Shown here in pieces: positions 5,002 through 61,619 of a DNA stretch of 64,000 nucleotides; within the stretch, counting starts at the first letter, position 1; every line of letters begins with the position of its first letter. Below the pieces are notes generated by a model. That model made no database searches and had not been told where the DNA came from. It saw only the letters and a program-made list of their open reading frames with translations. This DNA is from Phoronis australis (taxonomy: Eukaryota > Animalia > Phoronida), in the NCBI GenBank assembly GCA_002633005.1, contig NMRA01000403.1:186603-250602 (forward strand), in the 5' to 3' direction. The translations under genes and the position numbers were made by a program.

Positions 5002-5003
5002 GA

Positions 5004-11945: not shown

Positions 11946-12346
11946 CAGTGTTCATGATTTCACCTGGATTAAGTTCGGTAACCTACGGCTCTAATCTCCG
12001 ACAACTGGGCTGTGCTGCTAAAAAGAAAGTTAACTAATAACATATTTGAACATAAAACCAATAGCATTTCTGAATTTCTTGTCAAATGCTGATCATATTT
12101 AGTTTTTGAATCACCAAAGTCTCCCAACTACAACCGAGATTAAGACAGTTCATTCCGCCAGGTTTCAGTTAACCCTTTGAAGCCTGGGAGATAATTGGCC
12201 TTCCTGTTGTCGTACGGGACAAAAGACTGTGGTAGGCAGTTCCCAAGGAAACACGTTCAAAACCCCTCACGTCTGCAATAGTTCAATAGTGCTGAACGAC
12301 AGTACGTCGTCATGCACTTGCCCGGTGTTCAGCTCCCCGTTACAAG

Positions 12347-13002
12347 TGTGACGGGAGCGCCGTCTATTGGTGGAGCCGTGAGTGAGGACGAGTCGTCAGT
12401 TTAGTCTCAGAAGCTAGAGTGTGTTACTACTATATTTTAAAGGGGTGTAAGATGGTCAAGTCCTTATATGGAACTTCCGATGACGAAATTTTTAGTTCTA
12501 TTCTGATTGGTTTTCACATTTATCTTGAGACCCCTATTTTAGCGTAATTTGGAACATTCGCGGTGCGAATAAGCCTATAAAAATGGGCCCCACACGCTAA
12601 AACTTCGGATTTTGCCGGGTCTCGACTCTATCCGCAAGGAATCCCAACCAAACAACCTAACTGTTTGGGCCTTTTAAATTTGGATTTTGACGTTTTTAGC
12701 GAATTCTTCTTGTTTATAAATTCTTTGTGTGTTAAAAGTTAAAGCTGCGATGACGACGGAAGTTAGCGATGAGTTGTAAGTTTGTAGATCTGTGTTTCAT
12801 ATATATCGCATAATAAAATTCAGTATATTTATCTACTTCTCTCTTGTTTCACTCTCTATAAGTTGTCACCATGGTTCTCTCGTATGCGATTCGAACGAGT
12901 GAAAAAGTACACAACGCTGCAAATATTTTTATCGGCTACGAACAGTCGACATTTTAGAAACTAGGTAGATCGGTGCTGGTCGCTCCACCGATTCCCGTTA
13001 CA
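12347..13002 (+). mobile_element. Complete 656-bp Gypsy LTR (solo LTR, or 3' LTR of copy 2)
   Basis: TGTGACGGGA...TCCCGTTACA terminal inverted repeat, near-identical to 2853-3468 and 6087-6307. Flanks are CAAG/CAGG and there is no polypurine tract upstream. Confidence 0.9.
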
Positions 13003-16047: not shown

Positions 16048-16302
16048 NNNNNNNNNNNNNNNNNNNNNNNNNNNNNNNNNNNNNNNNNNNNNNNNNNNNN
16101 NNNNNNNNNNNNNNNNNNNNNNNNNNNNNNNNNNNNNNNNNNNNNNNNNNNNNNNNNNNNNNNNNNNNNNNNNNNNNNNNNNNNNNNNNNNNNNNNNNNN
16201 NNNNNNNNNNNNNNNNNNNNNNNNNNNNNNNNNNNNNNNNNNNNNNNNNNNNNNNNNNNNNNNNNNNNNNNNNNNNNNNNNNNNNNNNNNNNNNNNNNNN
16301 NN
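16048..16302. other. Assembly gap
   Basis: Run of N. Confidence 1.
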
Positions 16303-31500: not shown

Positions 31501-34500
31501 CAGGTTCCGGATGAGCTGTTCTAAATAACATCGATCACGTAAACGCAGTTGCCTGGAAGACTTTTACTATCAAATTGTAGCAGGTTTTTCAGATTGGCTC
31601 ACAATTCTGTCTTCACGCCAACTTATCAGATTTTGCGTTACAATAAAGGAACGCCGAAAATTTTCGTACCTTTCAGTCATTTGCCGGTAACATTCACAGG
31701 TGCCTATGGTTTTATACACTCTGTTCAACATTTCCACCAAATTTGTGCTAGATTTTGTTACAGGGTATTCATTTTTTCCAGGCGTAATATCTGCACAGTT
31801 GTCAATCCAAGCGTGGTTGATGGTGAAACGTATATTTTCCGGGATATAATTTTCACAAACAATTCCCCAAGTGGCAAATGTTAAAAGTTACAGATTCAAA
31901 ATATAACGAAATGTTAACCAAATATGTCACCAAATGCGCGTACCAGGGGAGGCTCGGGGGGCTCGAGCGAACCTATTTTTACAAAACGTGGTTGTCAAAA
32001 CGTTTCTACATTTTAGTGGCTTTGATTTTTTTCTTCGAGAAAACTTATCGTCAATAGCACAGTATTTCCGAGTACGGTATCAAAAATAAAAGAACCGTTT
32101 GCTTATCAACAGATTCTACTTGGACTTCCAATGTCATCTTTAATGTATTAATCAGATTATCACGAAGTCACAGAAAACAGTTATTAATGATTTTATACAC
32201 TCCACTTTCTTGCGAAACTAAGCGGAATCTTCGCTTAGTGTGACTGATGAAAATATAAATTAGAAAAAACTAATAATTGCGTTACACATATTCAAGATAC
32301 TCAAATGAAATGTTTTCAATGTAGACTGATTCACAAGTTCATTACAAGTGTTTACTCAAAATGGCGTAATCGATTGTGCTCTTTGTACTACAGTGTATTT
32401 GTACTGATTTCACGGAAACTGATGCACATATTTTTGGGTAGTTTCCCTGTTGTAAATGCGGTATGGGTTAGATTATTGCCGGCTAAAGCATATCTTCTAC
32501 GAGAATATTTCTTTAACAACTACACTGTAATGCAGCTCTGTTTGGTTCTTCGGAATCTTAGAAAGTATTAGAGTATAATGTTATTTTTGCTTAGCTACAC
32601 TTTCCTTATCTAAACATGAACTTAAAGGTAGTATTCCAGAGTTTTGAAAACACAAAATAGTATTATTGCATTTTATGTAGATTAATGTTAAACACATAAG
32701 ATATGTCAATAAACTTACGGGTATACAGTGTACTTGCAGCAATTACTTTTATTGCTTTAGTCGTTTTGTCACATTTTGTGATCAACTTTTCTTGATTAAA
32801 TACACATGCAGGTGTATATTTATGTGTATAGATACATGTACATGTAAATGTACCACGCCCATACACTGTGTATGCATGCATATGTGCTTCACAGTAAAGC
32901 AACAAAAATATACGGCTTCATATACTCGACTATAAAGTCAACGTCTAGTAGCCTGGGTTATTTGCTACATGTATGTGGTCTTAACAAAAAGCGTTGTTTT
33001 TGATTTGCGTTTATTTTTGTTGTATCACTTGTTCGGTATTGTTACGAAATGCCTTTATCCAAGCAATAGTTTATATCCTTAGACAATACTTAACATTGTG
33101 GTCATGGCACAAGCAAAAATAATAATAACTCGCCTTACCTCCACATTTTGGGACATTGTCAAAATCCCAGCTCGCTGTCACGAATTCCAGGTCGCAAAAA
33201 TTACCCGCAATTTTTATGCGCCAAATTGATTTTTAGGCCATCGACGGAGAAAATGTTTAGATAAAATGCTCTTACCTTCGGCGTTAAGTATTCTCAAATT
33301 TCAGGTTGCATAACTGAGTTCTTAATGTTTGATGTATCTGTTTTCCTCCGAAGTCGACCGCTTTTGATATGCCCTAGATGCGCTTGTTGCTTTGCAAATC
33401 AAATAATTCCCTGCCGCCTGACCTTCCTGTAAGGGTTTTCTATATCTACCGTACTATAGCACATCCTTTCGCGAGTTCAGAAAATTAGTTGCGAGCTTTG
33501 GTGCCTAAGTGAAAGTTGAGCCAGTGCTCTCTAACCGTTTCGAGTTACTAAATATGCATCGTAAACAATAGAAGAAAGTAATAGTTGAAAAGATACGCAC
33601 GACTCTTTTATTATTAATCTGCCATGTTACTGTAATCAAAGTCGTTAAAGAAGCAAAGATATATACATTATGCTTTTACTCTGAGTGCAATCTTCCTCCA
33701 TTTGTTTGTTCTTCAAATTTTACGACTCGACTGACTAAAAAACATGCTGTCGAAAAAAATCCGCAAAACGTTTTCCTAGCTGAATGACGTGTTGTGCATA
33801 CACCGCTATCGATTTGGGGGCAGAAATTAAGATGACATAAACAGTTATCAAACAAACGGCAGGTCATCACGAACAATTAAGAACGGAATGCTGTTTACGT
33901 TTTCGATTATAAGCTTTTCATTAAATAAAAAGCTTCAAATAATACCCATTCCGTGCGGGTTTCCATTATTGGGTAATTCGAGTTTGCTCCCTTAGCACGG
34001 ATACACTGTACACGTGCAGTGCTGTAGTGGTAAAATTAAAGGTAAGTACATGTAGGCGCCCAAAGCCCATCCTATCACCTTGAGCGCTGAACGTGTCTTA
34101 CGGTGGATANGCAAAAATAATAATAACTCGCCTTACCTCCACATTTTGGGACATTGTCAAAATCCCAGCTCGCTGTCATGAATTCCAGGTCGCAAAAATT
34201 ACCCGCAATTTTATGCGCCAAATTGATTTTTAGGCCATCGAGAAAATGTTTAGATAAAATGCTCTTACCTTCGGCGTTAAGTATTCCCAAATTTCAGGTT
34301 GCATGACTGAGTTCTTAATGTTTGATGTATCTGTTTTCCTCGACCGCTTTTGAAATGCCCTAGATGCGCATGTTGTTATGCAAATCAAATAATTCCCTGC
34401 CGGCTGACCTTCCCGTAAGGGTTTTCTATATCTACCGTACTATAGCACATCCTTTCGCGAGTTTAGAGAATTTGTTGCAAGCTTTGGTGCCTAAGTGAAA

Positions 34501-37500
34501 GTTGGGCCAGTGCTCTCTAACCGTTTCGAGTTACTAAATATGCATCGTAAACTAGAAGAAAGTAATAGTTGAAAAGATACGCACGACACTTTTATTATTG
34601 ATCTGCCATGTTACTGTAATCAAAGTCGTTAAAGAAGCAAAGATATATACAATATGCTTTTACTCTGAGTGCAATCTTCCTCCATTTGTTTGTTCTTCAA
34701 ATTTTACGACTCGACTGACTAAAAAACATGCTGTCGAAAAAAATCCGCAAAACGTTTTCCTAGCTGAATGACGTGTTGTGCATACACCGCTATCGATTTG
34801 GGGGCAGAAATTAAGATGACATAAACAGTTATCAAACAAACGGCAGGTCATCACGAACAATTAAGAACGGAATGCTGTTTAAGTTTTCGATTATAAGGTT
34901 TTCATTAAATAAAAAGCTTCAAATAATACCCATTCCGTGCGGGTTTCCATTATTGGGTAATTCGAGTTTGCTCCCTTAGCACGTATACACTGTACAGTAC
35001 GTGCTGTGCTGTAGTGGTAAAATTAAAGGTAAGTACATGTAGGCGCCCAAAGTCCATCGTATCACATTGAGCGCTGAACGTGTCTTACGGTGGATATAGG
35101 CGCTATGTTCAAATGCCAAAAGGTGGTTGGCTGCGCCGACGTGCGCCTACGGCCCACTACAGCACTGTGTAAGTGCCATATACATGTAAGTATGCTGACA
35201 ATAGATTAGCCTCAAAACAACACGTGACCCTAGCATGCATGTCGCTATGGCAAGGCCGTACCTTCTTAGGCACAAAATGAATCCGGGATTTTGCTTTTAA
35301 ACGTTCTTTTAGAAAATGAATTTGTTGTTACCGGTAAGTAAAATGAGAGTGGGACCCACTATAGACTGCGTAAGTGACAAATTCAAACCACGCGTACGCT
35401 AACAGGATACAATACAATGTCTCCTTCGATCACTGCACACATGATTATACCGTGCGACTCGAAACATCGCGATCCGGTTTCCGCATTTTGAATACATCTT
35501 GCAGTTTTGAAAACAAATTCCAGCGAGTGAAATTGTGGGTGGGGGCTTGCCAGAGCTGTTGGCGCTTTATTGAAGGCTGCCAAAAGTTAAGAGGGCGATT
35601 AGTAGAGCTGTTGGCGCTTGTTCCGAAAACTTCCAAAGGTAAGGAATACTGTACATGTACACTGTAGGCACAAACTTTAGTTTGGTCGTTGTTACGAATG
35701 ATCGCCGTTTAAAGAAGACGTTAAAAGCAAGTACCATGTTTCTGTGCTATGCAACCACCAAGGCGTCAATGTTTGGATATTCTTAACAACCACGGTACAT
35801 GTATTTTAGCCACCCGCAACATCTCTTCTAATTATCTTTAGCTGACGTTTCAATTGGAACAGTACTTTTTCCAAGCGAGTTTTAAAAATCAGTGACGTAG
35901 TCAATTGAAGACACTAGGAGTAAAAAATTTTCATATATTATTAATCGCTCACAATTTTACGTCTGCTTGTTCATACATGTTAGTAGCAATAGTTACATGT
36001 ACCAACTCAAAACTTGCCTGCTGAAAGAGAAGTCGTGTTCGTCGTTTGGCTATTGATAGATGTAGGGTTGAAATTTACACGCTTTGTGTGTTTTGCGATA
36101 AGAAAAACGAGACGCATGTTCAAACATTATGTTACTTTATTTTTCCGAATCATTATCCCCTGATGGGACCTCGACCGTGCACAAAAACAACAGGATCAAG
36201 CAGTGTCGCAATGCGATACTAAATTTATCTGAGATAATGTAATTGAATAATCAAGACATTTTACTTAAAAAATTAATTCATTTTTTTCACCACAAACTTT
36301 GGTAAGTTGATCGTTCCAGAATTTTTGTAAACGTCGCTCTTTTGTGACGTTTTATCATGTATTCTGCCATGGCCCAGAACTGGCTTCGGCGCAACAACAA
36401 AATTATGGTCGGACCCACATGAGTTGCTTCATAATTGCCTGGTATATGCTGAGAAGTGTACTACATATAAAATCTCAGTACGCTTATGTTGGAAATTCTA
36501 AGTTGCATACATGGACTTGATACGAGTGGCCAAAACCCGTGCTCTCATAAGAATTTTGGTCTGTACAGTACTACTATTGCAATATGCTAACGTGTCGAGA
36601 CTGAGTTCAATAATAGGTCTTAGTTAACGGGAACGACGTAACTCTGTTTTTAAAATACACTTTAGCAACATTCTTGTCATGGTTGTGCGGCCGTATTTTG
36701 ATGTTTCCTGGGCACTCGGTTGATGAAATTGGATGATGAGATTAATCATTTCGAGTGAATGTCACCCTACTGAAGATCTTGTCTTGGAATTACACTTGTC
36801 AAAAAGTAAGCGAAAGTGACATAGGCCTAATTTTGTTATTTAATCTTGATGCTCCGTTCAAAAGGTCACTAATAAATGTACACTGTACATGTATTGTGAA
36901 CTCAATATTTATTTTTCAAAACAATTAAAACGAACGCATTGACATTTGCTTGATTTCAATCCGGCGGCATTTTTATCGCTCTGTATCAGATTTTGAATTC
37001 TCTAGTGAAATGAAGTACAGTGTTGACGTGCAAATGCATGTCTAATTATTGATGTCCAGATGGTCTTCTATAATAGATGTACTGGTGTAGACGCGACGCA
37101 TTGTATTACTTGAGTGATTTTAAGAAACAATTAAATTTTAAAGATTTATTTAGATATTTTTCAAACAAGCACTAGTTTTACGGTGCAATATGTTGCTATA
37201 ATTACGCATCATTTCCCATATTTTGTACTTATGTTTTACGGTTCATGTTATAATTTTTGGTATGAGAGCTATTACTATATTATATTATTTCCCATATGTA
37301 CACATCAGTAAGTTTTTTTTACATATTTTGCCCATGTAGCCGTGTAGTCTAAGCGGCTTATGTTCAAGATGTTGAATTTTTTGGTAGTCCTTGTTTGCAT
37401 GCCATTAAAGCGGTCGTGATATTACCGTTTCATATGAAGCTCTTTGAGTCCACATATTTTTTACCTTTCTCTCTTTGAGAACCATCTCAAGGTAAATCAG

Positions 37501-46500: not shown

Positions 46501-48546
46501 AGAGTAGATCCTATTAATTTGTGTACAAAATTACATGTATGTGTGGCATGTCATCATTTTCTGGAACAACTCATTTTGTGCTCAACGTTATAGGTGGGAT
46601 GTTCTCTTATGTTCTCGTTTGCTACAAAAAACCCAAGTGACTACGTATTGATAGTTCTCCACCGAAATAAAATAAACAATAACCGATTATAGAGAGAGAA
46701 AGACGTTTTTGTGTGATTTTAAGGTAGTGAAATAGTCAAAATAGTTTATTTGAAAAATAAAATGAGCACCAACAACTGAAAACGGGTTGATCGACGAGTT
46801 TGACTGTGAGCCTGGAAGTGGTATTGCTCGCACTGGGGGAATTATGCACGGGAGTAGGATTTGTCCGAGAGTAGAGAAACATGTCCACCACACCGTAAAA
46901 TGTGGTTCATGAAGTCAAACTACGTTCGCTAGGGGGGAACAGCGTGCGCGTCCGAAAGATGTTGCTCGTTTGTAGATAATTCTAGGTCTGGCAAAACGAA
47001 ATAAATATTGAATCTATGAATTTAAGGGTCTGGTAACTGCTCATTTACGTTTGCAAGTTACGAAGTATACGGATGTTTCATTTCCTTTCCAGACTATTTC
47101 CCACTAGTTGTACCCGTAAGGCAGTCCTGTCTTTTGGGCAAGTTTCCTGAACAAGGTCAGAACGTGATATCGGCTGAGCTCCACGAGTCATTGGCCAATG
47201 CGCTGAAGTCGGTTGTTCTACTTGCACGTGCAGATGCACAAGGAGTGGGGTCCGGCTTCCGAGTAGGGCGCAATTATGTGATTACAAACTATCACGTGTA
47301 CCAATGCCTGAATGTCCCCAGTAAGTATTTTGTCTGTTGATTGAATGTATGAATCCGGGTTTTTGTAATTCGCCTAGGACACATGTATAATGGTTCCACT
47401 TTCCCTGCTGTAATCAAGGACCGGAATTTTAAGAGTTGGGTTAGATTTATAGGCCTATTTTCAGTTGTCCCCAGAGTTGCGCTGTGTATCGTCACTTGCC
47501 AATCTAATGCACTGTGATGACGACTAGTCTGNNNNNNNNNNNNNNNNNNNNNNNNNNNNNNNNNNNNNNNNNNNNNNNNNNNNNNNNNNNNNNNNNNNNN
47601 NNNNNNNNNNNNNNNNNNNNNNNNNNNNNNNNNNNNNNNNNNNNNNNNNNNNNNNNNNNNNNNNNNNNNNNNNNNNNNNNNNNNNNNNNNNNNNNNNNNN
47701 NNNNNNNNNNNNNNNNNNNNNNNNNNNNNNNNNNNNNNNNNNNNNNNNNNNNNNNNNNNNNNNNNNNNNNNNNNNNNNNNNNNNNNNNNNNNNNNNNNNN
47801 NNNNNNNNNNNNNNNNNNNNNNNNNNNNNNNNNNNNNNNNNNNNNNNNNNNNNNNNNNNNNNNNNNNNNNNNNNNNNNNNNNNNNNNNNNNNNNNNNNNN
47901 NNNNNNNNNNNNNNNNNNNNNNNNNNNNNNNNNNNNNNNNNNNNNNNNNNNNNNNNNNNNNNNNNNNNNNNNNNNNNNNNNNNNNNNNNNNNNNNNNNNN
48001 NNNNNNNNNNNNNNNNNNNNNNNNNNNNNNNNNNNNNNNNNNNNNNNNNNNNNNNNNNNNNNNNNNNNNNNNNNNNNNNNNNNNNNNNNNNNNNNNNNNN
48101 NNNNNNNNNNNNACTGTGCTTCTGCACCTCCCACTGAGGGCGCTGGCGTCGCTGTACTTTCCGTGGGCTCGCCGTCGTAAAAACCGTTTAATTTGTAATT
48201 TCAGGTTTCTGAGTTAAACCAATGGGCACAGCGGACATTTCCTGGCCGTGCCGTATTCCCACAAATCGACGACCCACGACGAGTTCTTTACCGAACAAGT
48301 CTACAGTTTGGCAAAGGCAGCTCAGGAAGTCCTGGTTTTGTACCCGATGACAAACATGAGGCGTGCGTCGCCGCGATACAGACACGTGGATTTCCGGATT
48401 TGCCAGATTTTCATTTCGTTCCCCAAGAGGTAGTCAAGGCTCGTTCTGTGGAGCAAGGGGTCAGGGTGGAGGCTGTCTATGACTTCCTCCACACCAACCA
48501 CCCTGCACTGTGTCAGGATATCTTTGGCAACAATAAGCCTAGTTAA
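19442..48546 (+). CDS. Spliced gene: ankyrin-repeat array + linker + FAM111-like trypsin-2 serine protease (5' end and catalytic-Asp exon unresolved)
   Basis: Exons 19442-19531, 38814-38906, 39475-39576, 40134-40232, 40379-40477, 40663-40770, 44683-44781, 45326-45424, 45809-46040 and 47093-47320 all have AG/GT borders and compatible phases. A terminal exon at 48205-48546 follows a gap. Confidence 0.8.
22217..22356. mobile_element. MITE with perfect 21-bp TIRs; relatives at ~20340-20462, ~26305-26428 and ~61120-61281
   Basis: CGTTCAGTAACGCTAGGACCT ... AGGTCCTAGCGTTACTGAACG. Related internal CACGTGTTCT..TTTAAAATACACGG cores and GTTA(C/T)TGAAC ends occur in the other copies. Confidence 0.75.
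23964..24202. mobile_element. hAT-like MITE (CA...TG ends, GCGCGCACCCAG inverted repeat); an inverted relative lies at ~22975-23135
   Basis: CAAGCGCGCACCCAG ... CTGGGTGCGCGCATG. No clear TSD. Confidence 0.55.
26092..28958 (-). mobile_element. Sola3 DNA transposon (decayed; one terminus present, the other lost at contig join n26091)
   Basis: Minus-strand translation gives SGNAGCYH, SESQNGKDLCDRKIAP, FPC..GY..F....L.QHLDVGNH, G*ALKK.K...RFS.KVK.FL..IFDEG..SG and LSESQI. The terminus GAGGCAG... abuts TTAA (28959-28962). Confidence 0.75.
28959..31968 (+). repeat. Second copy of 20714-21637 + 24102-26090 (allelic haplotype or segmental duplicate)
   Basis: Long high-identity alignment. This copy lacks ~2.5 kb and has an internal ~210-bp tandem duplication (~30617-31030). 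Confidence 0.85.
33113..35096 (+). repeat. ~1-kb direct duplication centred on single n at 34110 (likely overlapping haplotigs)
   Basis: 33113-34109 and 34111-35096 are near-identical, with identical ORFs at 33676 and 34660. Confidence 0.85.
35004..35168. mobile_element. Small MITE with CAGTGCTGTAGTGG-type TIRs
   Basis: C(A/T)GTGCTGTAGTGG ... CCACTACAGCACTG. Confidence 0.5.
38814..38906 (+). CDS. Ankyrin exon 2: GTALHRAAGWGRTEVARVLCKAGANINKQNV
   Basis: CTGCAG|...|GTAATA, 93 nt, ankyrin consensus. Confidence 0.9.
39475..39576 (+). CDS. Ankyrin exon 3: MMGWTPLHLAALCGHTETVKCLVEHNATVDVRTQ
   Basis: CATAG|...|GTAATT, 102 nt, TPLH motif. Confidence 0.9.
40134..40232 (+). CDS. Ankyrin exon 4: EGLTPLHCAALNGHTQTVKCLVEHNATVDERDK
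   Basis: CATAG|...|GTAATT, 99 nt. Recent duplicate of exon 3 together with its introns. Confidence 0.9.
40379..40477 (+). CDS. Ankyrin exon 5: EGHTPLHLAVQEGHIAVVQCLIELRANVNVRNE
   Basis: CATAG|...|GTAATT, 99 nt. Confidence 0.9.
40663..40770 (+). CDS. Ankyrin exon 6: NGDTCTALHLASQSGKAAVVELLVNEGSCEVTAVNK
   Basis: CTTTAG|...|GTATCT, 108 nt. Confidence 0.88.
44683..44781 (+). CDS. Ankyrin exon 7: EGNTPLHSASSRGRLAVVELLLKTGVDATVVNT
   Basis: TTGTAG|...|GTAAGA, 99 nt. Confidence 0.9.
45326..45424 (+). CDS. Ankyrin C-cap exon 8: VGQTAYDVCGDNRDMFFNKVDDETIEKIKKILE
   Basis: TTGCAG|...|GTATGT, 99 nt. GxTAxD is typical of a terminal ankyrin cap. Confidence 0.8.
45809..46040 (+). CDS. Linker exon 9 (KNMRLKQQSGKPP...DTKLM)
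   Basis: CTGTAG acceptor, open 77 codons, and a phase-1 donor compatible with the next exon. Confidence 0.7.
47093..47320 (+). CDS. Protease exon with catalytic His: ...ALKSVVLL...GVGSGFRVGRNYVITNYHV...
   Basis: TTCCAG|...|GTAAGT, phase 1-1. GSGF..TNxHV is the trypsin-2 (FAM111/HtrA/V8-like) His motif. Confidence 0.85.
47532..48112. other. Assembly gap inside the protease domain region
   Basis: Run of N. Confidence 1.
48205..48546 (+). CDS. Terminal protease exon with catalytic Ser: ...DDPRRVLYRTSLQFGKGSSGSPGF...AAIQTRGF...RSVEQGV...HPALCQDIFGNNKPS*
   Basis: TTTCAG acceptor, 113 open codons (absent from the ORF track). Aligns by eye to the FAM111A C-terminus (ITYDT.FFFGASGSP...AMHAAG...RSIIEFG...HKPWYEEVF). 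Confidence 0.85.
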   Translation, partial: VSELNQWAQRTFPGRAVFPQIDDPRRVLYRTSLQFGKGSSGSPGFVPDDKHEACVAAIQTRGFPDLPDFHFVPQEVVKARSVEQGVRVEAVYDFLHTNHPALCQDIFGNNKPS

Positions 48547-49772: not shown

Positions 49773-52583
49773 TAACACTTCGAACGAAATAACATGCGCC
49801 AACCCTACGTGTCGTAGCACTCGATATGGGCCGTGGTCGAGGGACTGGTATCACTCGCTCTATAATGGAAGCAGTTTGCTCGTTATTTATAAAATTTGAA
49901 AATACACTTACAAGGTGGTGAATCGTTCGTCGTTTGATCGAAACACAATTGCTTGAAATCTGCCGAACAAAGTGGGGCTCCAGACTGAAAGGCATGTTCC
50001 AGCCTGACATTCTACACTCTCATGCATCGCACAAACCGATGTCATTTCTGTGCAACTTTCACGTATTTAGGAAATTTGAACCCAGAGACGTTCTCAGTCA
50101 AGTTACAGTTACTACAGCCTCCACAAACGCTCGCCGCGGACTTTCCTAACAACTCCTCAGTAAAAAAAAACTACGGCAGAGACGGTCTTCCACCCATTAC
50201 GTACAGGTGTACAACCCCTATACGAAATTATCTTAGCAGCAGGCATACTAAAGGCTATTAAATCACTTAAGATGTTTTGATGAAATTCTTTATTAGATGC
50301 AGGGTCATGGTAGGAACTCTTTATGTCTAAGATTTGTCTAAACTTCCAAACTTTAAAACTTTCACATCCGCTAAGTTAGGCAAAATTAAGATAAAAATTA
50401 ACTCAAAATTTAAATCGACATTAAAATCTCTTCCTTGAGACAAATTTTAAGTTTTATTTTAAATTGACTGCAATGAAGGATAGGCCGTTTTCTTGGAACG
50501 TGTCCATGACCTGTATATATGATAATAGAACTCACATGTCCATGCACACAGTGTCCATACTGGGGTGAAATGTAGCTGCCTTAACACGGGGCACCAACCT
50601 CGGTTAATAACACACCCACATATAAACACGTGCATTTTAACATTTGCATATTTCTACTCTATATGTGTATAACATGTAATTACTTTTGATCGTTATCGCC
50701 AAGATAATGTATAGAAGTATCGTACATTTTTGTATGGGAATTTATATCAATTTATTTTTATATCATATGATATCTGTTCTCGGCGTATTTCTATATACAT
50801 GTATGTATATTTAAATGTTTATGCAAATATATGTTAATAAAACAAATCATCTCAAAGTTACACGTAATATGTTGTGAACGAGTATACGGATTCACGTTAA
50901 CGTGCTCTCTCCCTAAGTTTAGTTGAAAAGGGCGCCATTGGTAGCCACTCGTGGAACTACATGTACATATACATGTACTTCCGCGACCACGATAGCATGC
51001 TCACAATCCGGTATTTCAGATCTTTTTCTCGCGTCACTCTGTTTTAATCACGAGCATTTTCTTGTAATGACTAATATATTTTTGTCTCAATGCGCGTTAT
51101 GAACACTTTGACAACAATGGAATTGAATGAACGCTGCTACTATGGGCGAAGACTCTTTCATGGAATAGGCCTCTTTGAAGCTTAGTAAACGTGAAAGCAG
51201 GGGACAGCACTACTGTGTATACGCAGTTACAAGTACCATAGGGGTGTAAGATTGTGTGCAGGGGGCAGGGATCAGTATTGTCTTGCACGTCCTTCGGTCA
51301 GCTTAGAGTGAGAGGTCGAGAGAGGATCTCCCACGAAATTAAAATAAGTTGTTTCGCGCCACCAGGAGGTGATTGTGGTTTTAAGAACATCTATTCACTA
51401 ATGTTTGTTTTGAGTTACGCTCCATGCTAACAAGAAAACATTATTTTAATATTAAAACGAGACAATCCATAACTTGGCGAAAGTTTGCAAGTAAGGCTTA
51501 CATGTACATAGAAATAAAAACTGTGGTTTGGTACAGCAAAACCGCAAAGTGTTCGCATTTGGGTTATACACTGTACATGTACATATGTACATGTATATGG
51601 CCACGAAGATGCAATTATTGTTTTCCTTAGTATCCACGCAATGTCGTTGAGAAAGTTCGAGAATTTCTGTGGGGAAGATTATCGAAGCGTTAACTGATTT
51701 GTTGTACATTTTAATAAGGCTAGTCACTAGCTAGCAACACCATAAGATCTTCAACACACCATACATACAGTGTACATATATTCAGTAGTGGTGGACCTGT
51801 GGGGGGTTCAGGGGGTTTAACCCAACCCCCTTTGGGACAAAACCAAAAAAATGAAAATTAAAACAAAAACTTCATCGTTACCTTAATAAAACAAGGCACA
51901 GTTTTTATTGATGTGTTAGTTTCGCTATCAAATAACGATTGCGCAATAATTTGAATTTGTTTGTTCACAATTGTTTCTAAGTGTTTCAGTCGTGTTTTCT
52001 CTAAAACCGCATTTTATTTACGAATTGTTTCTTTACACAGCTCTCCAGGAAGTCACAAGGTGGCGCTTGCTACAAATTTAAATATTCACCATTTCAATGA
52101 GATACAGCAGATTCAATTGGACCTCTGGTGCCGTTTGATACATTCTTCAGTACCGGATGTAGTTGTGTGATATACATTGTAGATAGACCATGACATACAT
52201 GAAAACTGCAATGCAGAACTTTCCCATGGTAGTACAGTATGTAAAAAAAATTCATTTCTTAAGAAAGTAAAAATTAGTGATCCTGATACTTACATGTACA
52301 GTGAGTGTGGCTAAAATTTCTATTTCCATTACGAACAAAAATATTAGAACCACTTCCAAGGCATGAAAACGTTAATGGAGTTTACTGTGAATTTGATAAT
52401 GATGCATTCTTTGTGACTGGAGTTCAATGGAAACTGAAATAAAACTTCCATCTGGATAAGGAACATTTAGAGGCCGATATTTCCATCATGGATGGGTGAA
52501 ACACGGCTTTACCTTCCACACCCCGGCAAACCCGCGATCGAGAACGCCCGGAAGGCGATCGAGAACGAGACCTTGCACCAAAA

Positions 52584-53619
52584 ATGGCAGACGGTGAGTT
52601 TAAGTGTCGTTTTCTGCTTAAATAGAGGCGACTTTGGTACGAATGCTACACACAGGAAAGCGTCAGAGTGTAACCTTGTTGTGGATCTGAAATAATACAT
52701 GGCTTTTGCTTATTTTTCAAAATAAAGAGCTCAGAAAGCAATGGCTTTCGGTAAAATGCCTTGCTCATCGTAAAATCGACAATTTCTACTTGTTATTAGC
52801 AACTCCAAGGTTCTTAACAAGAGACGTGTGACGTTTATAGTTCAATCGTCCCTGATGGCACCTTTGTTAGTTATGATTTGTCAAACAATTTGAGATGTAC
52901 CAATACAAGCAGGTCCTTGTGTGAGACGGCGATCGGGAACGAAGTCGTTAATTCTCTATGGATATCGTGAACGCTAAAAAGCGATCGTGAACGCACATTT
53001 TTTTTCTCCGCATTGGCCTGAATAGTCCTTCAAGTTACGGTATTATGTCAATAATTTTATAATACTACGGAGCCTGAATTAGTTGATGGGTTGATTATTA
53101 TTTACATTTCATCGTTTTTTTCATGATTTCAAAGTGAGATTTAGCCAAACAAACATGACTGCATGCGTTTTGATTTTTTCAGTTGAATTGTAGCCACACC
53201 AGATGTCCTTCAGGGTGTTAACGTCCACGCCTTCAAAAAGAGTAGTACAACTGCTGCATGTCACAAAAAGTGTGTGTATGCTGTGGAGCCTTGTTCAGAA
53301 ACTGAGAAATCGACTTAGTATGACCACATGACAATAAAACACAGTGACACTACTACAAGCAAGACCTTTACCAGCCCTGTGATTGACGCGTTGCATTCTC
53401 AAGAGCTGTTTCAGCAATATAGTAAAACACAACATGAAGCATCGTGCTCAGGAACCAAGTCGACTCAGTGTCCTATTTGTGACCAATGTTTCACGGAATG
53501 AGTGAGCCTGATGCAACACTGCGTCACAGCACGAGGGCACTCTTTTTTGTGGTGAATGTGGCATGTCATGCAAACAGTATGCCTCCTTCTACAGGCATAG
53601 CAAGCAGAAACGTCATTAA
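52584..53619 (+). pseudogene. Decayed C2H2 zinc-finger gene inside the element
   Basis: Exon 1 is ATGGCAGACG|GTGAGT just inside the left TIR. Exon 2 from 53183 gives CVCCGALF...DHMTIKH, CPICDQCF...LMQHC..QH and CGECGMSCKQYASFYRHSKQKRH*, with stops and frameshifts. Confidence 0.65.
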
Positions 53620-54329
53620 TGAAATCATTAAGTCCGGTAGTGAAGGGTGTTAAGTCATTATAGTTTATTCAGATTTACAGAGTTTATGGTTGGTAGTTGT
53701 CTGATGTTATAGTATTTTGACGTTTTGTTTTGATCCTTTTTTCCTCAAGTTTCTTTCTATATTTGTGTTATTTCAAAAGGATCTTTAACAGAACCAGTAC
53801 ATTTTTGTAGTGTTGAGGTTGATTTAAATGGCCATACTAAGTGCCATTGGGCAATACTTACATACAATTGTTCTGACCAGTTAGTATTTTAAAAGAAAAT
53901 ATTTGTCTATGATTATTGTAGAAATTGCTTTGATATTGTTGTTGATTTCCTAGTGAGAGACTATTATACGGCTATAAATACATTGTCTAAGATTCAGTAA
54001 TGATTTAGTTTAATAGATTCCAAAAGTAATTCGTGGAAATGTTCAATGGATTTGTAATGTTGATTTCCCTAAAGCAATATTTTATATATTTTTGTAAGAC
54101 CAAGTTTGAGATATGTGTGATAAAACATTAATATTATAATAGAAATGTTATAATATTGTTGTTGATTTCCTGTGTAAATCACTACAGTGTGTAGTTGAGG
54201 TGATGTTAATGACAACATGTTGACTACATTTTGAGAAAATCACAACATAGTACGTGTATTATAACCCTCAATTTTTTTAATGTCACATTAAGCTGGAGAT
54301 CATGAACTGATGGTGCAGGTGAACTTAGG

Positions 54330-55245
54330 ACCAAGGCAACAAAACAGAAGAGTCAAGCACAATGAACATTCAAGCCACACGGGTGCCACAAATCAATCTG
54401 TATCAATGTTATTAGTAAAACATCAAGTAAAATCCCACAGGTTTTATCAGCGCACCAGTTTCCACAACTTCTGGCCAATTTTTAGATCCCAGACGTTTAT
54501 GAGTGAGAATCTTTGAATCATCTCGTTAAGTGTTGCCGGCTACACTCTCCTCCAGTCTCTCCCCATGGGCAAGTCCACCATCATTCTTTGACTTCACTGG
54601 CTATTTGTTTCTTTTTCCTTTTGCTGTCACAATTCTAGAACAAGATTCTACACTCGCTTTTATCTGCTGCTACAATTTGTTTACCCCTGTCTGACAGGCC
54701 ACGTGGAACAACTGCTGGGCGAGTCTTCAGTTTAGAACCCCTTGTTCTCAGTGGTTTCGTCTAAAAGTAGATGTCTGTTTTTAAAAACCCTGGTAGGGTG
54801 TTCCTTCACGTCGTGGGTAACATGTTCGTTGAAGCTCGCCTCACAATAACAGTGAACTTGTTTCCTGCAATGAAAATAAATTATTTTGTGAAACTAAAAT
54901 TATGCTTGATGTACATGTAGTGCTCATGGCAATTTAATGGAAATGTTATGCTGTTGTTCAGTTTTGATACGAAAATAACACAGTAATGACGCAAAATGTG
55001 ATTAATTCATTGCATCACACTTATTTTGTAACCTTGTTCACGTTTTAAAGTTCATCACTATTCGACACACCACGGTGCGTTCCCGATCGCATAAACCAAC
55101 ACGAATTAGCGTTCCCGGTCACTTATCGTTGCGTTCTCGAAAGCATCTTTCCACAGAAAAGCGTCGAAAAATCAGAGATCCTGACAAAACTACAAAAAAC
55201 AAGCACTGCGTTGAATATTCACACGTCATTTCTTCATAACTCCAT
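54330..55245 (-). pseudogene. Relic of a RAG1/Chapaev-like N-terminal region (Cys-rich domain + RING start); transposase core absent
   Basis: Degenerate motifs in order: STQCL..F(C)RIS (~55175), F.EHV.HDVKEHPTRV (54835-54785; cf. RAG1 DV..IHPT.FC) and GF...F....D(L)ICG...WL (54440-54365). An acceptor lies at 54865. Frames are broken. Confidence 0.45.
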
Positions 55246-55738
55246 GGTCAGTTGATTGATAAAAATAACGGTAATTTGCCAAAATGACATACAAATCAAA
55301 TTCGGCTTATGCATTGCTTCGGCCAACGTAACTTTTCTCCTATAATTGGAACAGACTTTAGCCTAAACCTCTACCTGCCCTTCCTCAATGTGTTACGCTT
55401 TGAACTCATGTCTCTGTTTTCACATTGGAAGTGAAAACAACGAAAATTCATCAAATTTACTGACCTTGCCTGGCTTCGCTTCTTGCGCCAAATTTCGTTC
55501 TCGATCGCCTTCCGGTCGTTCTCGATCGCAAGTTGGCCGGGGTGTTCCATGCACATTCGAGTATTGTTGTTTTCGTTCCTCAGTTGCATTACACTCAATG
55601 TGTGAACATCATGTTTGCAATAAAACGCACAGTGGGCAGTTACATATACATGCACAGGTACAGCTTAAATGACATTCCCGCTTGCTACGTGATCTCGTCG
55701 GTGGTAACTGTGGGTCAAGAATTCGCTAAATACAGTAT

Positions 55739-55822
55739 ATGAGCAAGTTGTATCTTATGTGTGTGTGTCTATACAGTGTATGAGCAAATTGTATCTTATT
55801 TGTGTGTGTGTGTGTGTGTGTC
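55739..55822. repeat. (TG)n microsatellite within a short tandem duplication
   Basis: ATGAGCAA(G/A)TTGTATCTTAT + (TG)n occurs twice. Confidence 0.75.
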
Positions 55823-56544
55823 TAAAACGGAATCATATCAAAAACTCCATCAAAGGTCGTAAGTAGATCTTTATTTACGTGTACTTGTCATCAATTTTGA
55901 TAGTAGATCGTACCGTACGTTTTCTTTACGCACAAAGTGAGCGGGGGAAGTGAGTATTATTTTCTTTTATCTAAAACTGACGAATTCTCCCCCAACTCCT
56001 CGGCAGCGCATGCCTCTGTCGCAGCAGTAGCTGGTTTTTCCAATCCTCCATGTTGATTTCATGCAGAGCATTCTAGACTAGCGCGGTTTTCAATCGCAGA
56101 ATAGCAATAGATAGTTAGCGTTCAGCGGTACACAGCATCACACAGTTACACTGTTGCACAAACTGCCTCCATTATAAGAGTACCTATGGAAGGCTTTGCT
56201 AATGCAACAATTGACTTTCTCCAAACGGGAAAAAACTTGCATGCACGCATGCAATAAGAACAGCCTGGGGTGTTTCTGTAGCCATCAGATTTGTTTAAAG
56301 GCTACGCAATTACCCGAGGTGCTCCGGACGACGTGCACTTTATAAGTCGTGCTAACGCGTAACATTGTAAAAGACGAGCAAAGTTTCGGTCGTAATAACG
56401 CTGGTAATTAGGGGCGACACTTACCTCCCAACAGATCACGCTAGTAAACGAGGTTAAACAGGAAGTAAATTTGCCGGGAATGAATAATATATCCTGCGTC
56501 TTTAGTTGTAATAATGCAGGTGACTGTTTGTTTTTCTTTCCAGT

Positions 56545-59500
56545 ATGATGTCATTCCTGGTGTACTTTACAGTGCTGTTGCTTATCACCACCGCCTCGAG
56601 TGAAGAGGAAAACAGTTAGCAAATCGTTCATCGATAATGAAAAATATTTTTCGTGCTAGGAATTCAGTACGACTCATTGTCCCGGGGCTGCTCAGTGGTA
56701 CTCCATCCAAACGTCTCAATTCAGTCTGGGGACTTAGCGTAAATAGAGACTCATACGACTAGTCTTGTACTCCTTTGGGCTAGGTAGGTCGGGAGATTAA
56801 ACTATTTCACTTTCTATTTTTCAGTGTCGGGATGCACTTTTTGTTGACTTAGATGGCCTGAGTTAATACCAAAATAATGAACCCCAAAATGTTTCTCAGA
56901 GTCTGCTCGTAATTGTATTTGCTATACAAAACGTTAGAGTGTTAATTTTACAAGATTTTTATTGACTTAGTTAATAAGCATCTCAGATCTTGTCTAGGTG
57001 GACATGTGCAGTACTTGTGCACTCATGATCTGTATAATTAGGGTATTCACTGCATATTGTGACGTTTTTTTGAGAGAATGTCGCAGAGCGTGCACGAATT
57101 GGAACGGAAATAACTATGCCGGATTCGTGAACACCGACTACATGAACTTCACGTGCCGTCACTGGGCTGAACTTGACCCCGCGGTGACTGTTCTTGGGAC
57201 AGACGACGCCGATTTCCCCTGCGACAACTACTCCAGAGTATCCGCCAAGAACTACTGTAGAGCCATCAAGTCGGATATACCTTGGTGCTACACCGAGTTT
57301 GGATACATGCGCCGTTCATTTTGTTTCGTACCCAGGTGTGGTAGGTAAAACGATGTGTTAGTGAAGCCATACCATGTTTGTTTTAATTTACACGTACGTT
57401 TTAGGGAATTACATGTACCCTCTTTGTTTACACGACGGGATGGTTAGCACACCTAATAACGCACCGTAATACCATGCACTGAATGAAGGTTATGGATTCC
57501 TTCAGTGTAAATTCATTCATTCCAGTATAAAGTTTGTCATTTTGTTTATTTTCATATATACTACAATTATTGTAAAAGGCAAAAGTAATCAGGCAAAATA
57601 CATGTACCGTTTCCCCGTCACGACGGCTAATTTGGTTAACTGCATGTCACTAATACAGTATCAACTACTGTAATTTGGTCAATCTAGAATGCTTTAACCA
57701 CATCCCTGTTACTGCCTTTTCAATCTGAGTCACGAGGCAATTATCTGACGATGAATGTGACTTTTACTTAGGCGTCCGGTCGTCAGGGGAAATTTTGGCG
57801 TTTCATTAAGCGAAAAATAATAGCTGACCACTATTATAAACTGTCAGAAAGCACAAGACTCGATTTTGTGTTCGTCGCAAAAAATTCAGACATACGACCA
57901 CTGCCACTGTTTGAAACGTGATGCCCCTATAAGGTAATACTTGTATTACATAAACGTGATGCCCCTATAAGGTAATACTTGTATTACATAAACATCGCTC
58001 AGTTACCTTATGTGCTAATGCAAAGGAAAGAACTAAAACTACCTGCTACTGCCCAACTTCGCGCTATATATTGGCGAGAGATTGTGGTTCTCTATGTATA
58101 GTTAATATGTTTGTGGAATGTCACATTAACGTTTCAATGGCCTATGTCCAGTCTTGTTGCCTTTCACACGGAAAAAGTTTAGTGGACTGAGTGAAACGAC
58201 TATACATTTTAGAACCTCCTCCGCTTTGTTTCCTGACATGTGCATCTGGGCCGTCATATAGTGGCAGATGGTCAGTCACAAGAAGTGGTCAGAGGTGTAA
58301 ATCGTGGAGTTCACAAATGTATCCTTCGAAATGCATTGGAACCGTGGACAGCAACTTCCCATGTGATGGTTCCCTACGTCATGCAAGAAACTTCTGCCGC
58401 GCCCCTGACGGCGATCCGAGAGGACCCTGGTGTTACACTGCAGAGAACAGCACCGCATGGGATTACTGTGATATTCCTCAGTGTGGTAACTAACCACAAA
58501 TTGCTTATAATTTATTTTAATTGAGAATCAGGGATGCATTTAAGAAAGGTCTCCTTTGTTTTGGCCAAAAGATGAGTACGACAATTAAAATCAGAGCATA
58601 TGTAAACAACGACATCGTATTAATCGACGTTTTGGTTTATTGTCACTTTATTCTCAAGACAGATGTTCACACTATTCCGGTCAGTTAATACAGGTGGAAA
58701 AAATCTGCACAGGTACATGTACACGTTACCTGATTGGAATATTGTGAACATTTGTCTTGAGAATGGTCTGAAACGTCAATTAAGACAATGTCGTTGTTTA
58801 CATACTTTATGCACTGAATTTAAAGTTCATTTGAGCATGCCGAACGTCGATCTTTTTATAAATCTATAAATAGTTTCAAAGATTTTTGAAGTTTGGAGGC
58901 CCGGCCCCACCGCCGGCAAACTTGCCTCCCTGCTATAGGTCTTTTTGACCGTAAGTTACTCCCCCCGTGTTATTTGATTTACAATTCACACGATTCATGT
59001 ACGTCACGTGTTTCGTAGATCGCAACTGTGGAATTCGTTACGTTTATCCAAGACTGAGGATCATTGGCGGGAACGACGTCCAACAGGGGGAGATACCGTG
59101 GCAAGTGATGATTATGAAGAGAAGTCAGTTCGGCAACTGGCTCTTCGTTGTCTGTGGCGGAACCATCGTTGATGAATGGTGGATTGTCACAGCCGCACAT
59201 TGTTTTCTGTAAGTCACAATCTAACGTTAACAATGTTCAGCTGATGGGATTTTTCATAATTCATTGATGAGGTAAAGAACAAGCTTACCTTTTAATCATG
59301 AGACACGGACTGCGCAATTATAAAAAGACAGTGAGTCATTTACCATTCTCCGTACATGTACATGTATCGGCAGCATTTCGTTTGTTGACAAGGAAGCTCA
59401 CTAGAGTGTTCCGTTCCCTGATAAATGAAACTGGCTGATTAAATGTTTTGGAGTGGACTTGAACTTCCCTGAAGTGTGCTTAGACCATGACACCCTAAAG

Positions 59501-61077
59501 CAGAATAAGGAGGTTTAAGTGGTCGGACAATATACGTCACCATGGCATCACATGCAAATATAGTTTACTAACGCACACATACAGTTCTACAGCGGTGGTG
59601 CTCTATTCTAGAGGCCTTAAGCGCCATCGGGAGACTTTTTCGAGATGGCAAAGTAAGTTAGTGAAGCAAAACTTTCCTAATCTTTCAGGAAGGGAGGAAC
59701 CGAGGATTTTGTGATAAGAGTCGGTGCCTTGGACAACAGACGACCAGACGCGTATGAACAGTCTTTCTCCATAGACGTCCTCATCGTTCACGAACATTTT
59801 AAAGGTGGGCTTGTACATTTTTAAAGATATATTGAGCGCGTTACTTCGAATAGCTGGTGAAAATTCCAAAGTAATGTAAAATAACAACCTTTATGCGAGT
59901 TATTTTTCCAAGTCCAGAGTGTCTCTTCAGCTTGATTATGACAGCCATTTTAATAGCACCTGAATTAAACATTGTTGACCTTACGTTAAAGCTTCACAGC
60001 AGAAAAGAGTTCCTTCAATTTACATGTAATTGGCATAAATTCACCCTTTCACAACAAAGTTTTGAGGACACGTTCCGTTATCAAGTTGGTCTCAAAATTC
60101 CCTCAGTCAAATTGGAGGTGATTAAAGGACTTCGCAGAAAGAACAGGCAATTATTGTTAGAAACCAAGCTCTAAAGGTTGATTTGTCACGAAGTGTCATT
60201 TCATGCGAGGAACATGGTCTCGAGGACTAGCGAACTTTCAGTTCTTTCGAGAAAATCACCTTACATCTGATTGGAAAAGTTGAAAGCAATGTTACGGTCG
60301 TCTGAGTGATCGAAATCAAAAGTCAGCTTCTAGAACGAAATGCAGGTTTGTAGTCGCTTTGATGTGTTGTTATCAAAGTTAAAATAACATTGAGCCCTGT
60401 TTTGGTTATTTCAACCAACCGTTGTTCTTTCATCTGCTAATACATCATTGGCGTAAGACTTGAGTGATTAAAGCAAGACTGAAATAAAAACTCATGCTTC
60501 CTATGTCACGCGTTGGATATTATGGTTCTTCAGTTGATGGGCAGTCTTTCACCACAGTTGCACCGCTGTAACTCGCCTATCGTAGGTCACGCTTAATTGC
60601 CTGTTTAGTACATTTTGAAAGGCGTTTTCAAATTTTGCTCCAAACTTATGAGGGTTGTATATGGTAGCATAGCACTATTTCTATTCAAAGAACTGTATGG
60701 AGAAGTCGTTTTTAGTATCCGTTACTAGGCCAAAGCCCCATTTGGTACACTTTTAATAAACGCGAAGTTTATCTAATAATTAGCACCGGTGTTATCTGCT
60801 TTCATTTTCCTGACGGAAGCCTCTCTTTGAACATTTGTTTTTCCTACAGGAAACTGTTTTCAATTAACGTTCCTTGCACCCACTCTTCCGTCCATTGCAG
60901 GCGAGAGTAGTCTTGACAACGACATCGCTATGGTCAGGGTCAAATCGGTCAATGGCTTGGGCATCGTTTTTAGTCAAATTGTTCAGCCGGCCTGCCTAGC
61001 AACGCCGTCTGTCTTTGAAAACGTCCGCCGTAGGAGGCAGGGTTGCATTGTGTCTGGCTGGGGATTCGATTCTCGAG
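56545..61077 (+). CDS. Secreted two-kringle S1A serine protease (plasminogen/tPA-like architecture), 3' exons not found
   Basis: Phase-consistent exons: 56545-56614 (signal peptide MMSFLVYFTVLLLITTASS), 57077-57340 (kringle, NYCR/PWCY), 58213-58485 (kringle, RNFCR/PWCY), 59019-59208 (CG..RLR|IIGG, PWQV, TAAHC), 59689-59804 (VIRVG...IVHEHF) and 60901-61077 (DNDIA, PACL, SGWG). Confidence 0.9.
57914..57993. repeat. 38-39 bp tandem duplication in intron
   Basis: AAACGTGATGCCCC(C)TATAAGGTAATACTTGTATTACAT occurs twice. Confidence 0.8.
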
Positions 61078-61619
61078 GTAATATGACGTGGATTAAGACA
61101 ATCTGCTTTGTTGTAACCTATCACTTGTGCAATTATCAGGATCGCGTAATGCAAGTGGTTCGCTTGAAATTTAAAAGTAAAGATCTTGCGAGACTCCGCG
61201 AGATGTCGCCACGTAATTTTAATGAGAGCTCTTAATTTTGGCTAGATTTCTGTAGCGGCGAGGCAGTTATTGAACTCGCCGACCCGGTTTAGTCTATCTG
61301 TCAGCTCACTAACAACAGCCAAACAACATGTCTTGGAAATCGACGACATTTCGTGAGTCCGCTCACAAAAGTTCGGCAAAGTAACAAGAACTTATTTAAA
61401 GGGTATAAATATTTCCATCTTGAAACAACGCCCACGTTAAGGCTATAGGGTAGATTAGGTTTGAAGGAGAATACCACCCGATTTAATTGGTCTTTTTACT
61501 GTCTTAATCGGTCTATATCCTTTATCGGCGCCTCTTATACGGTCGACCTTACCTTGCCGAGAGGTCTCGCGTTACTATAAACTGTGAGGAAGGTGAGAAA
61601 CGACACAGCGACGTTAGTG

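What the first reader, a model, noticed from the sequence alone, without database searches (positions are those of the whole stretch)
52514..55549. RAG/Transib-signature transposon with convergent genes: RAG1-N-like relic facing a C2H2 zinc-finger gene instead of RAG2L
Seen: CAC...GTG termini, 50-bp TIRs (46/50) and a perfect 5-bp TSD, TTCCA. A short exon with a splice donor starts just inside each TIR. The plus-strand relic has three recognisable C2H2 fingers; the minus-strand relic has CRI-like, D..EHPT and RING-start-like motifs. An AT-rich spacer separates their 3' ends. Established: CAC termini plus a 5-bp TSD characterise Transib and RAG-like (ProtoRAG) elements, whereas Chapaev uses 3-4 bp. 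ProtoRAG has RAG1L and RAG2L tail-to-tail. Inference: this is a deletion derivative of a two-gene RAG1-like transposon whose partner is a C2H2 protein rather than kelch-PHD RAG2L, possibly an undescribed branch relevant to RAG origins. The RAG1-like reading rests on degraded motifs and is the weakest link.
Basis: partly seen in the sequence, partly recalled or inferred. Interest (0 to 1): 0.8.

Follow-up and report, generated by a model that had tools for sequence, protein, structure and literature searches.

The report
Transib-ended transposon carrying zinc-finger gene
This is one decayed copy of a repeated jumping gene whose ends resemble those of the elements behind antibody-gene shuffling; it carries a zinc-finger gene that likely reads short repeats near its ends, but its second gene is most likely not the RAG1-like relic first proposed, so the link to RAG is unproven.

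Summary
The element is real: 52519-55544, CAC...GTG ends, TIRs 46/50, TSD TTCCA. Reads show a multicopy family: depth about 35-120 times the flanks over all 3 kb, zinc-finger part included, and many different flanks starting exactly at both ends. Family copies are transcribed convergently, and the plus gene is C2H2. New: a 13-bp word occurs five times near each end. The RAG1-N reading largely fails. The listed majority variants of sister copies remove 3 of 7 stops in another frame and 0 of 10 in the frame with the EHPT and RING-like motifs (P=0.005). 'CRI' is intronic, the motifs score at background, and Pfam and PDB give no RAG1 hit. The likely true ORF (about 150 codons) has no homologue found. 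CAC, AA at 34-35 and the 5-bp TSD fit Transib, but no transposase was seen. The scan noted this layout before on other DNA, assigned to a P-like transposase (e1-10640140, same genome; unchecked; no sequence match found). Verdict: a non-autonomous two-gene TIR family, probably Transib-type; RAG relevance unproven.

The parts
52514..52518 (+). Left target-site duplication TTCCA
   Evidence: chance about 0.001
52519..52568 (+). Left TIR, 50 bp; starts CAC, G at 7, AA at 34-35; holds two copies of the 13-bp word (52534, 52555)
   Evidence: boundary from loose ends
52584..52593 (+). Short first exon of the zinc-finger gene: ATG, then a donor GT at 52594 (splicing inferred)
   Evidence: sequence; no RNA joint among those shown
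52929..52993 (+). Three subterminal copies of the 13-bp word GCGATCGRGAACG (52929, 52961, 52981; 0, 3 and 1 mismatches)
53183..53619 (+). Main exon of the C2H2 gene relic: fingers at about 53273-53342 and 53365-53440 (frame-split, seen by eye), 53469-53534 and 53548-53616; stop at 53617
   Evidence: plus-strand RNA rises in the 53210 bin
53620..54300 (.). AT-rich 3' UTRs and spacer (GC 0.29); plus-strand RNA falls after about 53870
54409..54864 (-). Main exon of the minus gene: about 150 codons in frame P0003 with 7 stops in this copy (3 absent in most sister copies); no homologue found; likely the 5' remnant of the transposase gene
   Evidence: acceptor at 54864 from RNA joints
55078..55144 (-). 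Three subterminal copies of the 13-bp word (starting 55144, 55122, 55090 on the minus strand)
   Evidence: majority variants at 55118, 55121, 55141, 55142 go to the consensus base (read by hand)
55375..55409 (-).
   Evidence: 2 X6 reads; phase
55465..55494 (-). Short first exon of the minus gene; donor GT at 55464; joins 54864 in phase with frame P0003; no ATG in this copy
   Evidence: RNA joints 55189->55465, 54864->55466, 54866->55470
55495..55544 (-). Right TIR, 50 bp, 46/50 identical to the left; two copies of the 13-bp word
   Evidence: boundary from loose ends
55545..55549 (+). Right target-site duplication TTCCA

Best explanation
It is a decayed copy of a multicopy, non-autonomous two-gene cut-and-paste transposon with CAC ends and a 5-bp duplication, likely moved in trans by a Transib-type transposase, whose own C2H2 protein likely binds the 13-bp word repeated near both ends and whose second gene is likely the 5' remnant of the transposase gene rather than a RAG1 N-terminal relic. 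Shown: the ends, the TSD in this one copy, the multicopy state of the whole 3 kb, convergent transcription and minus-gene splicing in family copies, C2H2 fingers, five copies of the word at each end, and which minus frame the sister copies reopen. Inferred: a master element lost the middle of its transposase gene, and this 3-kb derivative spread; a transposase from an intact master would pair the TIRs, cut at CAC and join the ends to target DNA with a 5-bp stagger; the C2H2 protein would act as an end-recognition or regulatory helper.
For: Ends and TSD. Both TIRs carry the five positions reported as conserved in Transib TIRs, CAC at 1-3 and AA at 34-35 (against PMC1131882 section 9); AA by chance is about 0.07. 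Depth is 39-114 times (X1) and 34-120 times (X2) the flanks in all 13 inner bins. Loose ends at both boundaries have low agreement (0.36-0.57), so many different flanks. Strand bias in X5: first-mate-plus share 0.22 over the finger gene, 0.70 over the minus gene, 0.03 over a plus-strand host exon used as control. 13-bp word: 5 hits at up to 2 mismatches in the 2,926 bp between the TIRs against 3 in the other 60,974 bp; 5 of 5 listed majority variants inside these words go to the consensus base (read by hand). Frame: 3 of 7 stops removed in P0003 (P=0.005), 0 of 10 in P0001, 3 new stops in P0002; rough likelihood ratio above 3,000 against P0001 and about 60 against neither frame being open.
Against: No transposase core and no autonomous copy were seen, so the superfamily rests on end features, which vary within Transib itself (10.64898/2026.08.26.747230, passages). 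The TSD comes from one copy. The heptamer matches 4/7 and the nonamer region is GC-rich, unlike the A-rich Transib consensus. Known Transibs have one gene (PMC4411706). hAT5 elements also make 5-bp TSDs (title in a reference list only). A same-genome note gives this layout to a P-like transposase (e1-10640140, unchecked). Only 40 of 106 variant rows were shown, so four stops in P0003 are not shown to be absent in sister copies. The minus first exon has no ATG in this copy. Binding of the fingers to the word was not tested.
Confidence: 0.45

Rival explanations
1. It is a deletion derivative of the undescribed lineage noted elsewhere in this scan: a P-element-like transposase with a nested exonuclease plus a separate, inward-facing C2H2 gene. 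The minus ORF would be that transposase's N-terminus, and the Transib-like ends a coincidence.
For: Unchecked AI notes used as leads only: same genome, 49-bp TIRs, convergent C2H2 gene (e1-10640140); a shrunken derivative with spliced inward-facing C2H2 genes in another genome (e1-9181860). Tested here: this element has 50-bp TIRs and a convergent C2H2 gene that starts just inside one end.
Against: Described P-superfamily elements make 7-9-bp TSDs (PMC3698922 passages); this copy has 5 bp. Look-ups by the whole element, the left end and the finger relic found 0 look-alike windows, though these find only close matches. The TSD and end sequence of the noted elements were not given to me.
Confidence: 0.3
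2. It is an ordinary non-autonomous Transib-type element that captured host gene pieces early (a zinc-finger gene, perhaps the second ORF too) and carried them along as passengers.
For: No homologue was found for the minus ORF (weak searches). The finger relic resembles generic C2H2 clusters. Shorter derivatives exist in the family, such as joint 53879->55516.
Against: The layout is symmetric: each gene starts with a short exon just inside a TIR, both face inward, and the 13-bp words sit in the first introns. That fits genes native to the element better than random capture.
Confidence: 0.15
3. One reading: the minus gene is a RAG1 N-terminal (Chapa/NZD plus RING) relic of a ProtoRAG-like element in which a C2H2 gene replaces RAG2L.
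For: CAC ends, 5-bp TSD and convergent genes match the RAGL layout (PMC7204232 passages). HP, WP and CxxC-like letters lie in the expected order in one frame. A minor splice form (2 reads) puts an ATG in that frame.
Against: 0 of 10 stops in that frame are removed by the listed variants against 3 of 7 in another frame. The majority variant at the expected cysteine gives Leu (F34L). CRI is intronic. The best matches to the two published motifs are 3 of 6 and 3-4 of 7 residues, against 3-4 in 21 control segments. No RAG1 hit in Pfam for six frames at E up to 10 or in PDB; phmmer on 1.84 billion proteins gave 2 repeat artefacts.
Confidence: 0.07

Closest known systems
Transib superfamily, non-autonomous derivatives (PMC1131882, passages and sections 8-9 read)
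   Same: CAC...GTG ends, 5-bp TSD, G at 7 and AA at 34-35 of the TIR, no transposase core in a multicopy derivative.
   Different: Two convergent spliced genes, one C2H2 (known Transibs encode one protein, PMC4411706); a 13-bp word repeated five times at each end; GC-rich TIR without an A-rich nonamer; transposase not seen.
RAGL / ProtoRAG / TransibSU transposons (PMC4411706 parts 1-2 of 4; PMC7204232 and 10.1101/2023.08.20.553239 passages; PMC9435367 whole text)
   Same: CAC ends, 5-bp TSD, two genes facing each other inside the TIRs.
   Different: No kelch-PHD RAG2L; no detectable RAG1L sequence; the TIR matches the protostome RAGL consensus at only 8 of 17 positions; near-symmetric TIRs with internal repeats.
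Chapaev / Chapaev3 (PMC4079192 passages)
   Same: Invariant CAC...GTG ends.
   Different: TSD 5 bp, not 3-4 bp; no Chapa domain detected in the frame that the family reopens.
P-like transposase with nested exonuclease plus convergent C2H2 gene (this scan's unchecked notes e1-10640140, e1-9181860); P superfamily (PMC3698922 passages)
   Same: About 50-bp TIRs and a separate inward-facing C2H2 gene; one note is from the same genome.
   Different: Described P elements make 7-9-bp TSDs; no sequence link was found; no transposase or exonuclease in this copy.

Membership tests
Transib | CAC...GTG termini | tested here: met
Transib | 5-bp TSD | tested here: met
   This one copy only; paired flanks of other copies were not obtainable
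Transib | Conserved TIR positions 34-35 (AA) | tested here: met
   Both TIRs (definition); chance about 0.07
Transib | Full heptamer and A-rich nonamer consensus | tested here: inconclusive
   Heptamer 4/7; nonamer region GC-rich; TIRs are variable in the superfamily
Transib | DDE transposase homologous to the RAG1 core | not testable with these tools
   Absent from this copy; no genome held; no autonomous copy reached
Transib (canonical) | A single gene | tested here: not met
   Two convergent transcribed genes; definition from PMC4411706
RAGL / ProtoRAG | Two convergent genes inside CAC TIRs with a 5-bp TSD | tested here: met
RAGL / ProtoRAG | RAG1L N-terminal zinc motifs in the coding frame | tested here: not met
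   Motifs at background, outside the reopened frame or intronic
RAGL / ProtoRAG | Sequence homology to RAG1/RAG1L by profile or database search | tested here: inconclusive
   No hit, but the queries were decayed and broken by stops
RAGL / ProtoRAG | Kelch-PHD RAG2L partner | tested here: not met
   The partner is C2H2; no kelch or PHD hit in six frames
Chapaev / Chapaev3 | 3-4-bp TSD | tested here: not met
   No 3- or 4-bp match at the boundary fixed by reads
Chapaev / Chapaev3 | Chapa domain and CMC-type DDE core | tested here: inconclusive
   Motifs at background; core not present in this copy
P superfamily / P-like exonuclease lineage | 7-9-bp TSD of described P elements | tested here: not met
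   the TSD of the exonuclease lineage is unknown to me
P superfamily / P-like exonuclease lineage | P-type transposase with nested exonuclease | not testable with these tools
   No sequence of the noted elements was available; look-ups found no look-alikes
hAT5 | hAT transposase and hAT5 end signature (5-bp TSD shared) | not tested
   Only the title of the Repbase report was seen

The most novel reading that the evidence does not exclude
The master element is an undescribed two-gene branch of the Transib/RAG superfamily in which a four-finger C2H2 protein sits where RAG2L sits in ProtoRAG and reads a 13-bp word repeated at both ends, so end recognition is handed to a separate partner: a second, independent recruitment of a convergent partner gene by a RAG-type transposase.
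Probability: 0.25. Interest if true: 0.72.

Novelty: new variant of a known kind. Interest (0 to 1): 0.42.

Why it matters
The current model has RAG arising when a one-gene Transib gained RAG2L (PMC9435367, whole text read). A Transib-type element with a different convergent partner would show that this step happened more than once, and would give a testable case of a helper protein that reads transposon ends. If the master is instead the P-like exonuclease lineage, this family would give that lineage its end signature (CAC, 5-bp TSD, 13-bp word). The negative result also matters: short Cys/His motifs in decayed transposon DNA can mimic RAG1-N, and sister-copy variants give a cheap test of frame.

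Tried and rejected
No whole genome is held, so no genome-wide TIR search or second TSD. No second copy in the window. Run search: 4 DNA holders from one study at 0.28-0.35 of the words, no RNA holder listed. TIR pattern scans: 120 metagenome loci (best BLAST pieces to the element 42 bp or less, GC 0.46 and above), 34 bacterial genome loci (judged by record titles, not aligned), 0 viral; all taken as chance. With the reopened frame: 0 of 49 longer and 0 of 1 near-length candidates, 0 in PDB, 0 of 8 viral stretches, no Atlas hit for a 37-aa stop-free piece, Pfam only DUF4662 at E 0.04-0.07. Single-sequence folds: pLDDT 53 and 60, pTM 0.20 and 0.32, a helical run at about residues 30-85; fold searches gave only generic long helices (best Z 3.6, rmsd 3.5, 52 aligned; best Z 5.7, rmsd 1.3, 54 aligned; Foldseek E 2.3 or worse), uninformative. 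A resemblance of that helical run to the RAG1 nonamer-binding domain is recalled, comes from no call and was not supported by PDB search. The 3-bp TSD alternative was rejected by loose ends. 52822-52970 as a plus-gene coding exon was rejected because a majority variant puts a stop in it. No empty-site joint was among the 15 of 164 joints shown. Literature: searches showed no description of a Transib-type element with a C2H2 partner; most hits were seen as listings only, Repbase Reports are not in the library, and no supplements were read, which may list such families or TIRs.
Full report
1. Observation. The element spans 52519-55544. The ends read CAC...GTG, the TIRs match at 46 of 50 and 55 of 70 positions, and TTCCA flanks both sides; of duplication lengths 2-10 at this boundary only 5 fits, with a chance of about 0.001. 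A boundary one base further out would give a 3-bp duplication, but reads rule it out (below). There is no second copy in the window and no whole genome is held. The element lies upstream of kringle (E 3e-9) and trypsin (E 4e-5) exons on the plus strand, probably in an intron of that host gene (the intron position is inferred).

2. It is a multicopy family. Four DNA runs of one study hold 0.28-0.35 of its words. Laid on 51000-57600, summed contig depth over the 13 inner bins is 39-114 times (X1) and 34-120 times (X2) the flank median, and 39-61 times over the two finger bins. The tool warns that this is no copy number; it does show that the whole 3 kb, fingers included, is repeated. Loose ends start exactly at 52519 (31 X2 contigs, 35 X5 reads) and 55544 (28 X1 contigs, 37 X6 and 20 X7 reads) with agreement 0.36-0.57, so many insertion sites exist; because the TIRs are alike, either end can map to either place. 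One X1 contig matches the left junction with no differences (52153-52558), but X1 may be the source sample. This copy differs from the majority at 82 of 1,451 positions, 5.7%. Shorter derivatives exist, such as joint 53879->55516.

3. Two convergent genes. In stranded RNA (X5) the first-mate-plus share is 0.03 over a plus-strand host exon, 0.22 over 53210-53872 and 0.70 over 54315-54977; X6 and X7 repeat the minus-gene bias. Only 40 of 1,844 laid X5 reads are 99% or more alike, so the RNA comes from sister copies. Minus-gene joints: 55189->55465 (1 X8 contig, GT-AG on the minus strand), 54864->55466 (2 X6 reads), 54866->55470 (2 X7 reads), and a depth step at 54884 (X7 27 to 4). The plus gene has an ATG exon and donor by sequence only. 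Two of six finger-sized pieces score as C2H2 in Pfam, under the cut-off; the Atlas returns 10 of 10 C2H2 clusters at 0.96-0.97 for a 60-aa piece, with recognition 2027 under the 2300 bar; two more fingers are frame-split and seen by eye.

4. The word GCGATCGRGAACG occurs twice in each TIR and three more times 400-470 bp inside each end, always pointing inward. Between the TIRs there are 5 hits at up to 2 mismatches in 2,926 bp, against 3 in the other 60,974 bp. Five listed majority variants fall inside these words and all five go to the consensus base (52962, 55118, 55121, 55141, 55142, read by hand). Repeated end words are typical binding sites for element-encoded proteins (own knowledge); that the C2H2 protein binds them is inference.

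5. The RAG1-N reading. One search showed 40 of 106 majority variant rows; 11 fall in the main exon 54864-54415, after dropping 54701, seen only in one X8 contig. They remove 3 of 7 stops in frame P0003 (hypergeometric P=0.005; about 0.014 over three frames), 0 of 10 in P0001, and make 3 new stops in P0002. A rough likelihood ratio is above 3,000 for P0003 over P0001 and about 60 over neither being open. The main donor at 55465 joins 54864 in phase with P0003. At the expected cysteine of the HP motif the majority variant gives Leu. CRI at 55067 lies in an intron. Scored against the motifs of PMC1131882, the best matches are 3 of 6 and 3-4 of 7 residues, the same as in 21 control segments. Pfam, which holds RAG1_imp_bd PF12560, gives no RAG1, RING, kelch or PHD hit in six frames at E up to 10; PDB gives none.

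6. What the minus gene is. Unknown. The reopened frame gives about 150 codons with a predicted helical run (pLDDT 70-89 over residues 31-80). No homologue was found, by weak searches only; the folds matched only generic long helices. Because the family moved and holds no catalytic core, I infer that this is the 5' remnant of the transposase gene.

7. Mechanism and superfamily. I commit to a non-autonomous derivative of a two-gene element moved by a Transib-type transposase, with the C2H2 protein as an end-binding helper (0.45). For: CAC, a 5-bp TSD, and AA at 34-35 in both TIRs, the positions called conserved in 21 Transib families. Against: one TSD, a weak heptamer and nonamer, labile end features in Transib, and one gene in known Transibs. 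The main rival (0.30) comes from unchecked notes of this scan: a P-like transposase with nested exonuclease and a convergent C2H2 gene inside 49-bp TIRs in the same genome (e1-10640140) and a derivative in another genome (e1-9181860). Described P elements make 7-9-bp TSDs and no sequence link was found. Host-gene capture gets 0.15 and the RAG1-N model 0.07. A RAG-fold two-gene element was also noted in this genome (e1-10416496, unchecked); its partner is not C2H2.

8. Literature seen. PMC9435367 whole text; PMC4411706 parts 1-2 of 4; PMC1131882 passages and sections 8-9; passages of PMC7204232, 10.64898/2026.01.24.700457 (26), PMC12730594, 10.64898/2026.08.26.747230 (43), PMC4079192, 10.1101/2023.08.20.553239 (70), PMC6431247 (71, nothing relevant), PMC5753468, PMC9587614, PMC3698922. 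Nine searches showed no Transib-type element with a C2H2 partner. Repbase Reports are not held and no supplements were read; they may bear on novelty.

9. Verdict. A real, multicopy, transcribed, non-autonomous two-gene TIR family with Transib-type ends, a C2H2 gene and end repeats; a new variant of a known kind. The RAG1-relic claim that carried the first score is most likely wrong, and the master element is unidentified. Interest 0.42.

Noticed in passing
window 2853-13002: LTR retrotransposon with gag-, RT- and integrase-like ORFs (labels read by eye) and LTR-like repeats 2853-3468 / 12347-12967 at 95%; an internal 1.66-kb duplication 3578-5241 / 6349-8004 at 97%.
   Followed up: no
window 5231-5647 (+): Transposase-like ORF fragment between the duplicated blocks; weak Pfam DUF6589 match, E 0.03.
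   Followed up: partly
window about 51870-52109: A separate high-copy repeat just left of the element (X1 depth about 14,000; many loose ends at 51872, 52035, 52088-52109), present in RNA.
   Followed up: no
window 57043-57345 and 60831-61139 (+): Host gene exons: kringle (E 3e-9) and trypsin (E 4e-5); the kringle region is transcribed on the plus strand.
   Followed up: partly
window 20714-35096: Local duplications at 90-97%: 20714-21642 / 28959-29903, 24102-26090 / 29912-31967, and a tandem 1-kb pair 33113-34109 / 34111-35096.
   Followed up: no
window 27137-27469 (-): 111-codon ORF with a C2H2-like motif that recalls a transposase C-terminus (recalled label); no Pfam hit at E up to 0.1.
   Followed up: partly
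window 58585-58823: Imperfect palindrome, 68% self-complementary, possibly a MITE.
   Followed up: no
window 55465-55544 and 52519-52593: Read-through RNA across the element ends with one dominant flank sequence in X5 and X6, so one sister copy elsewhere may supply much of the end-spanning RNA; an X8 contig joins a foreign 124-base exon to the acceptor at 54864.
   Followed up: no
window about 11540-11950, 16050-16300, 47530-48110: Three assembly gaps, 1,244 N in all; none lies in the element.
   Followed up: no
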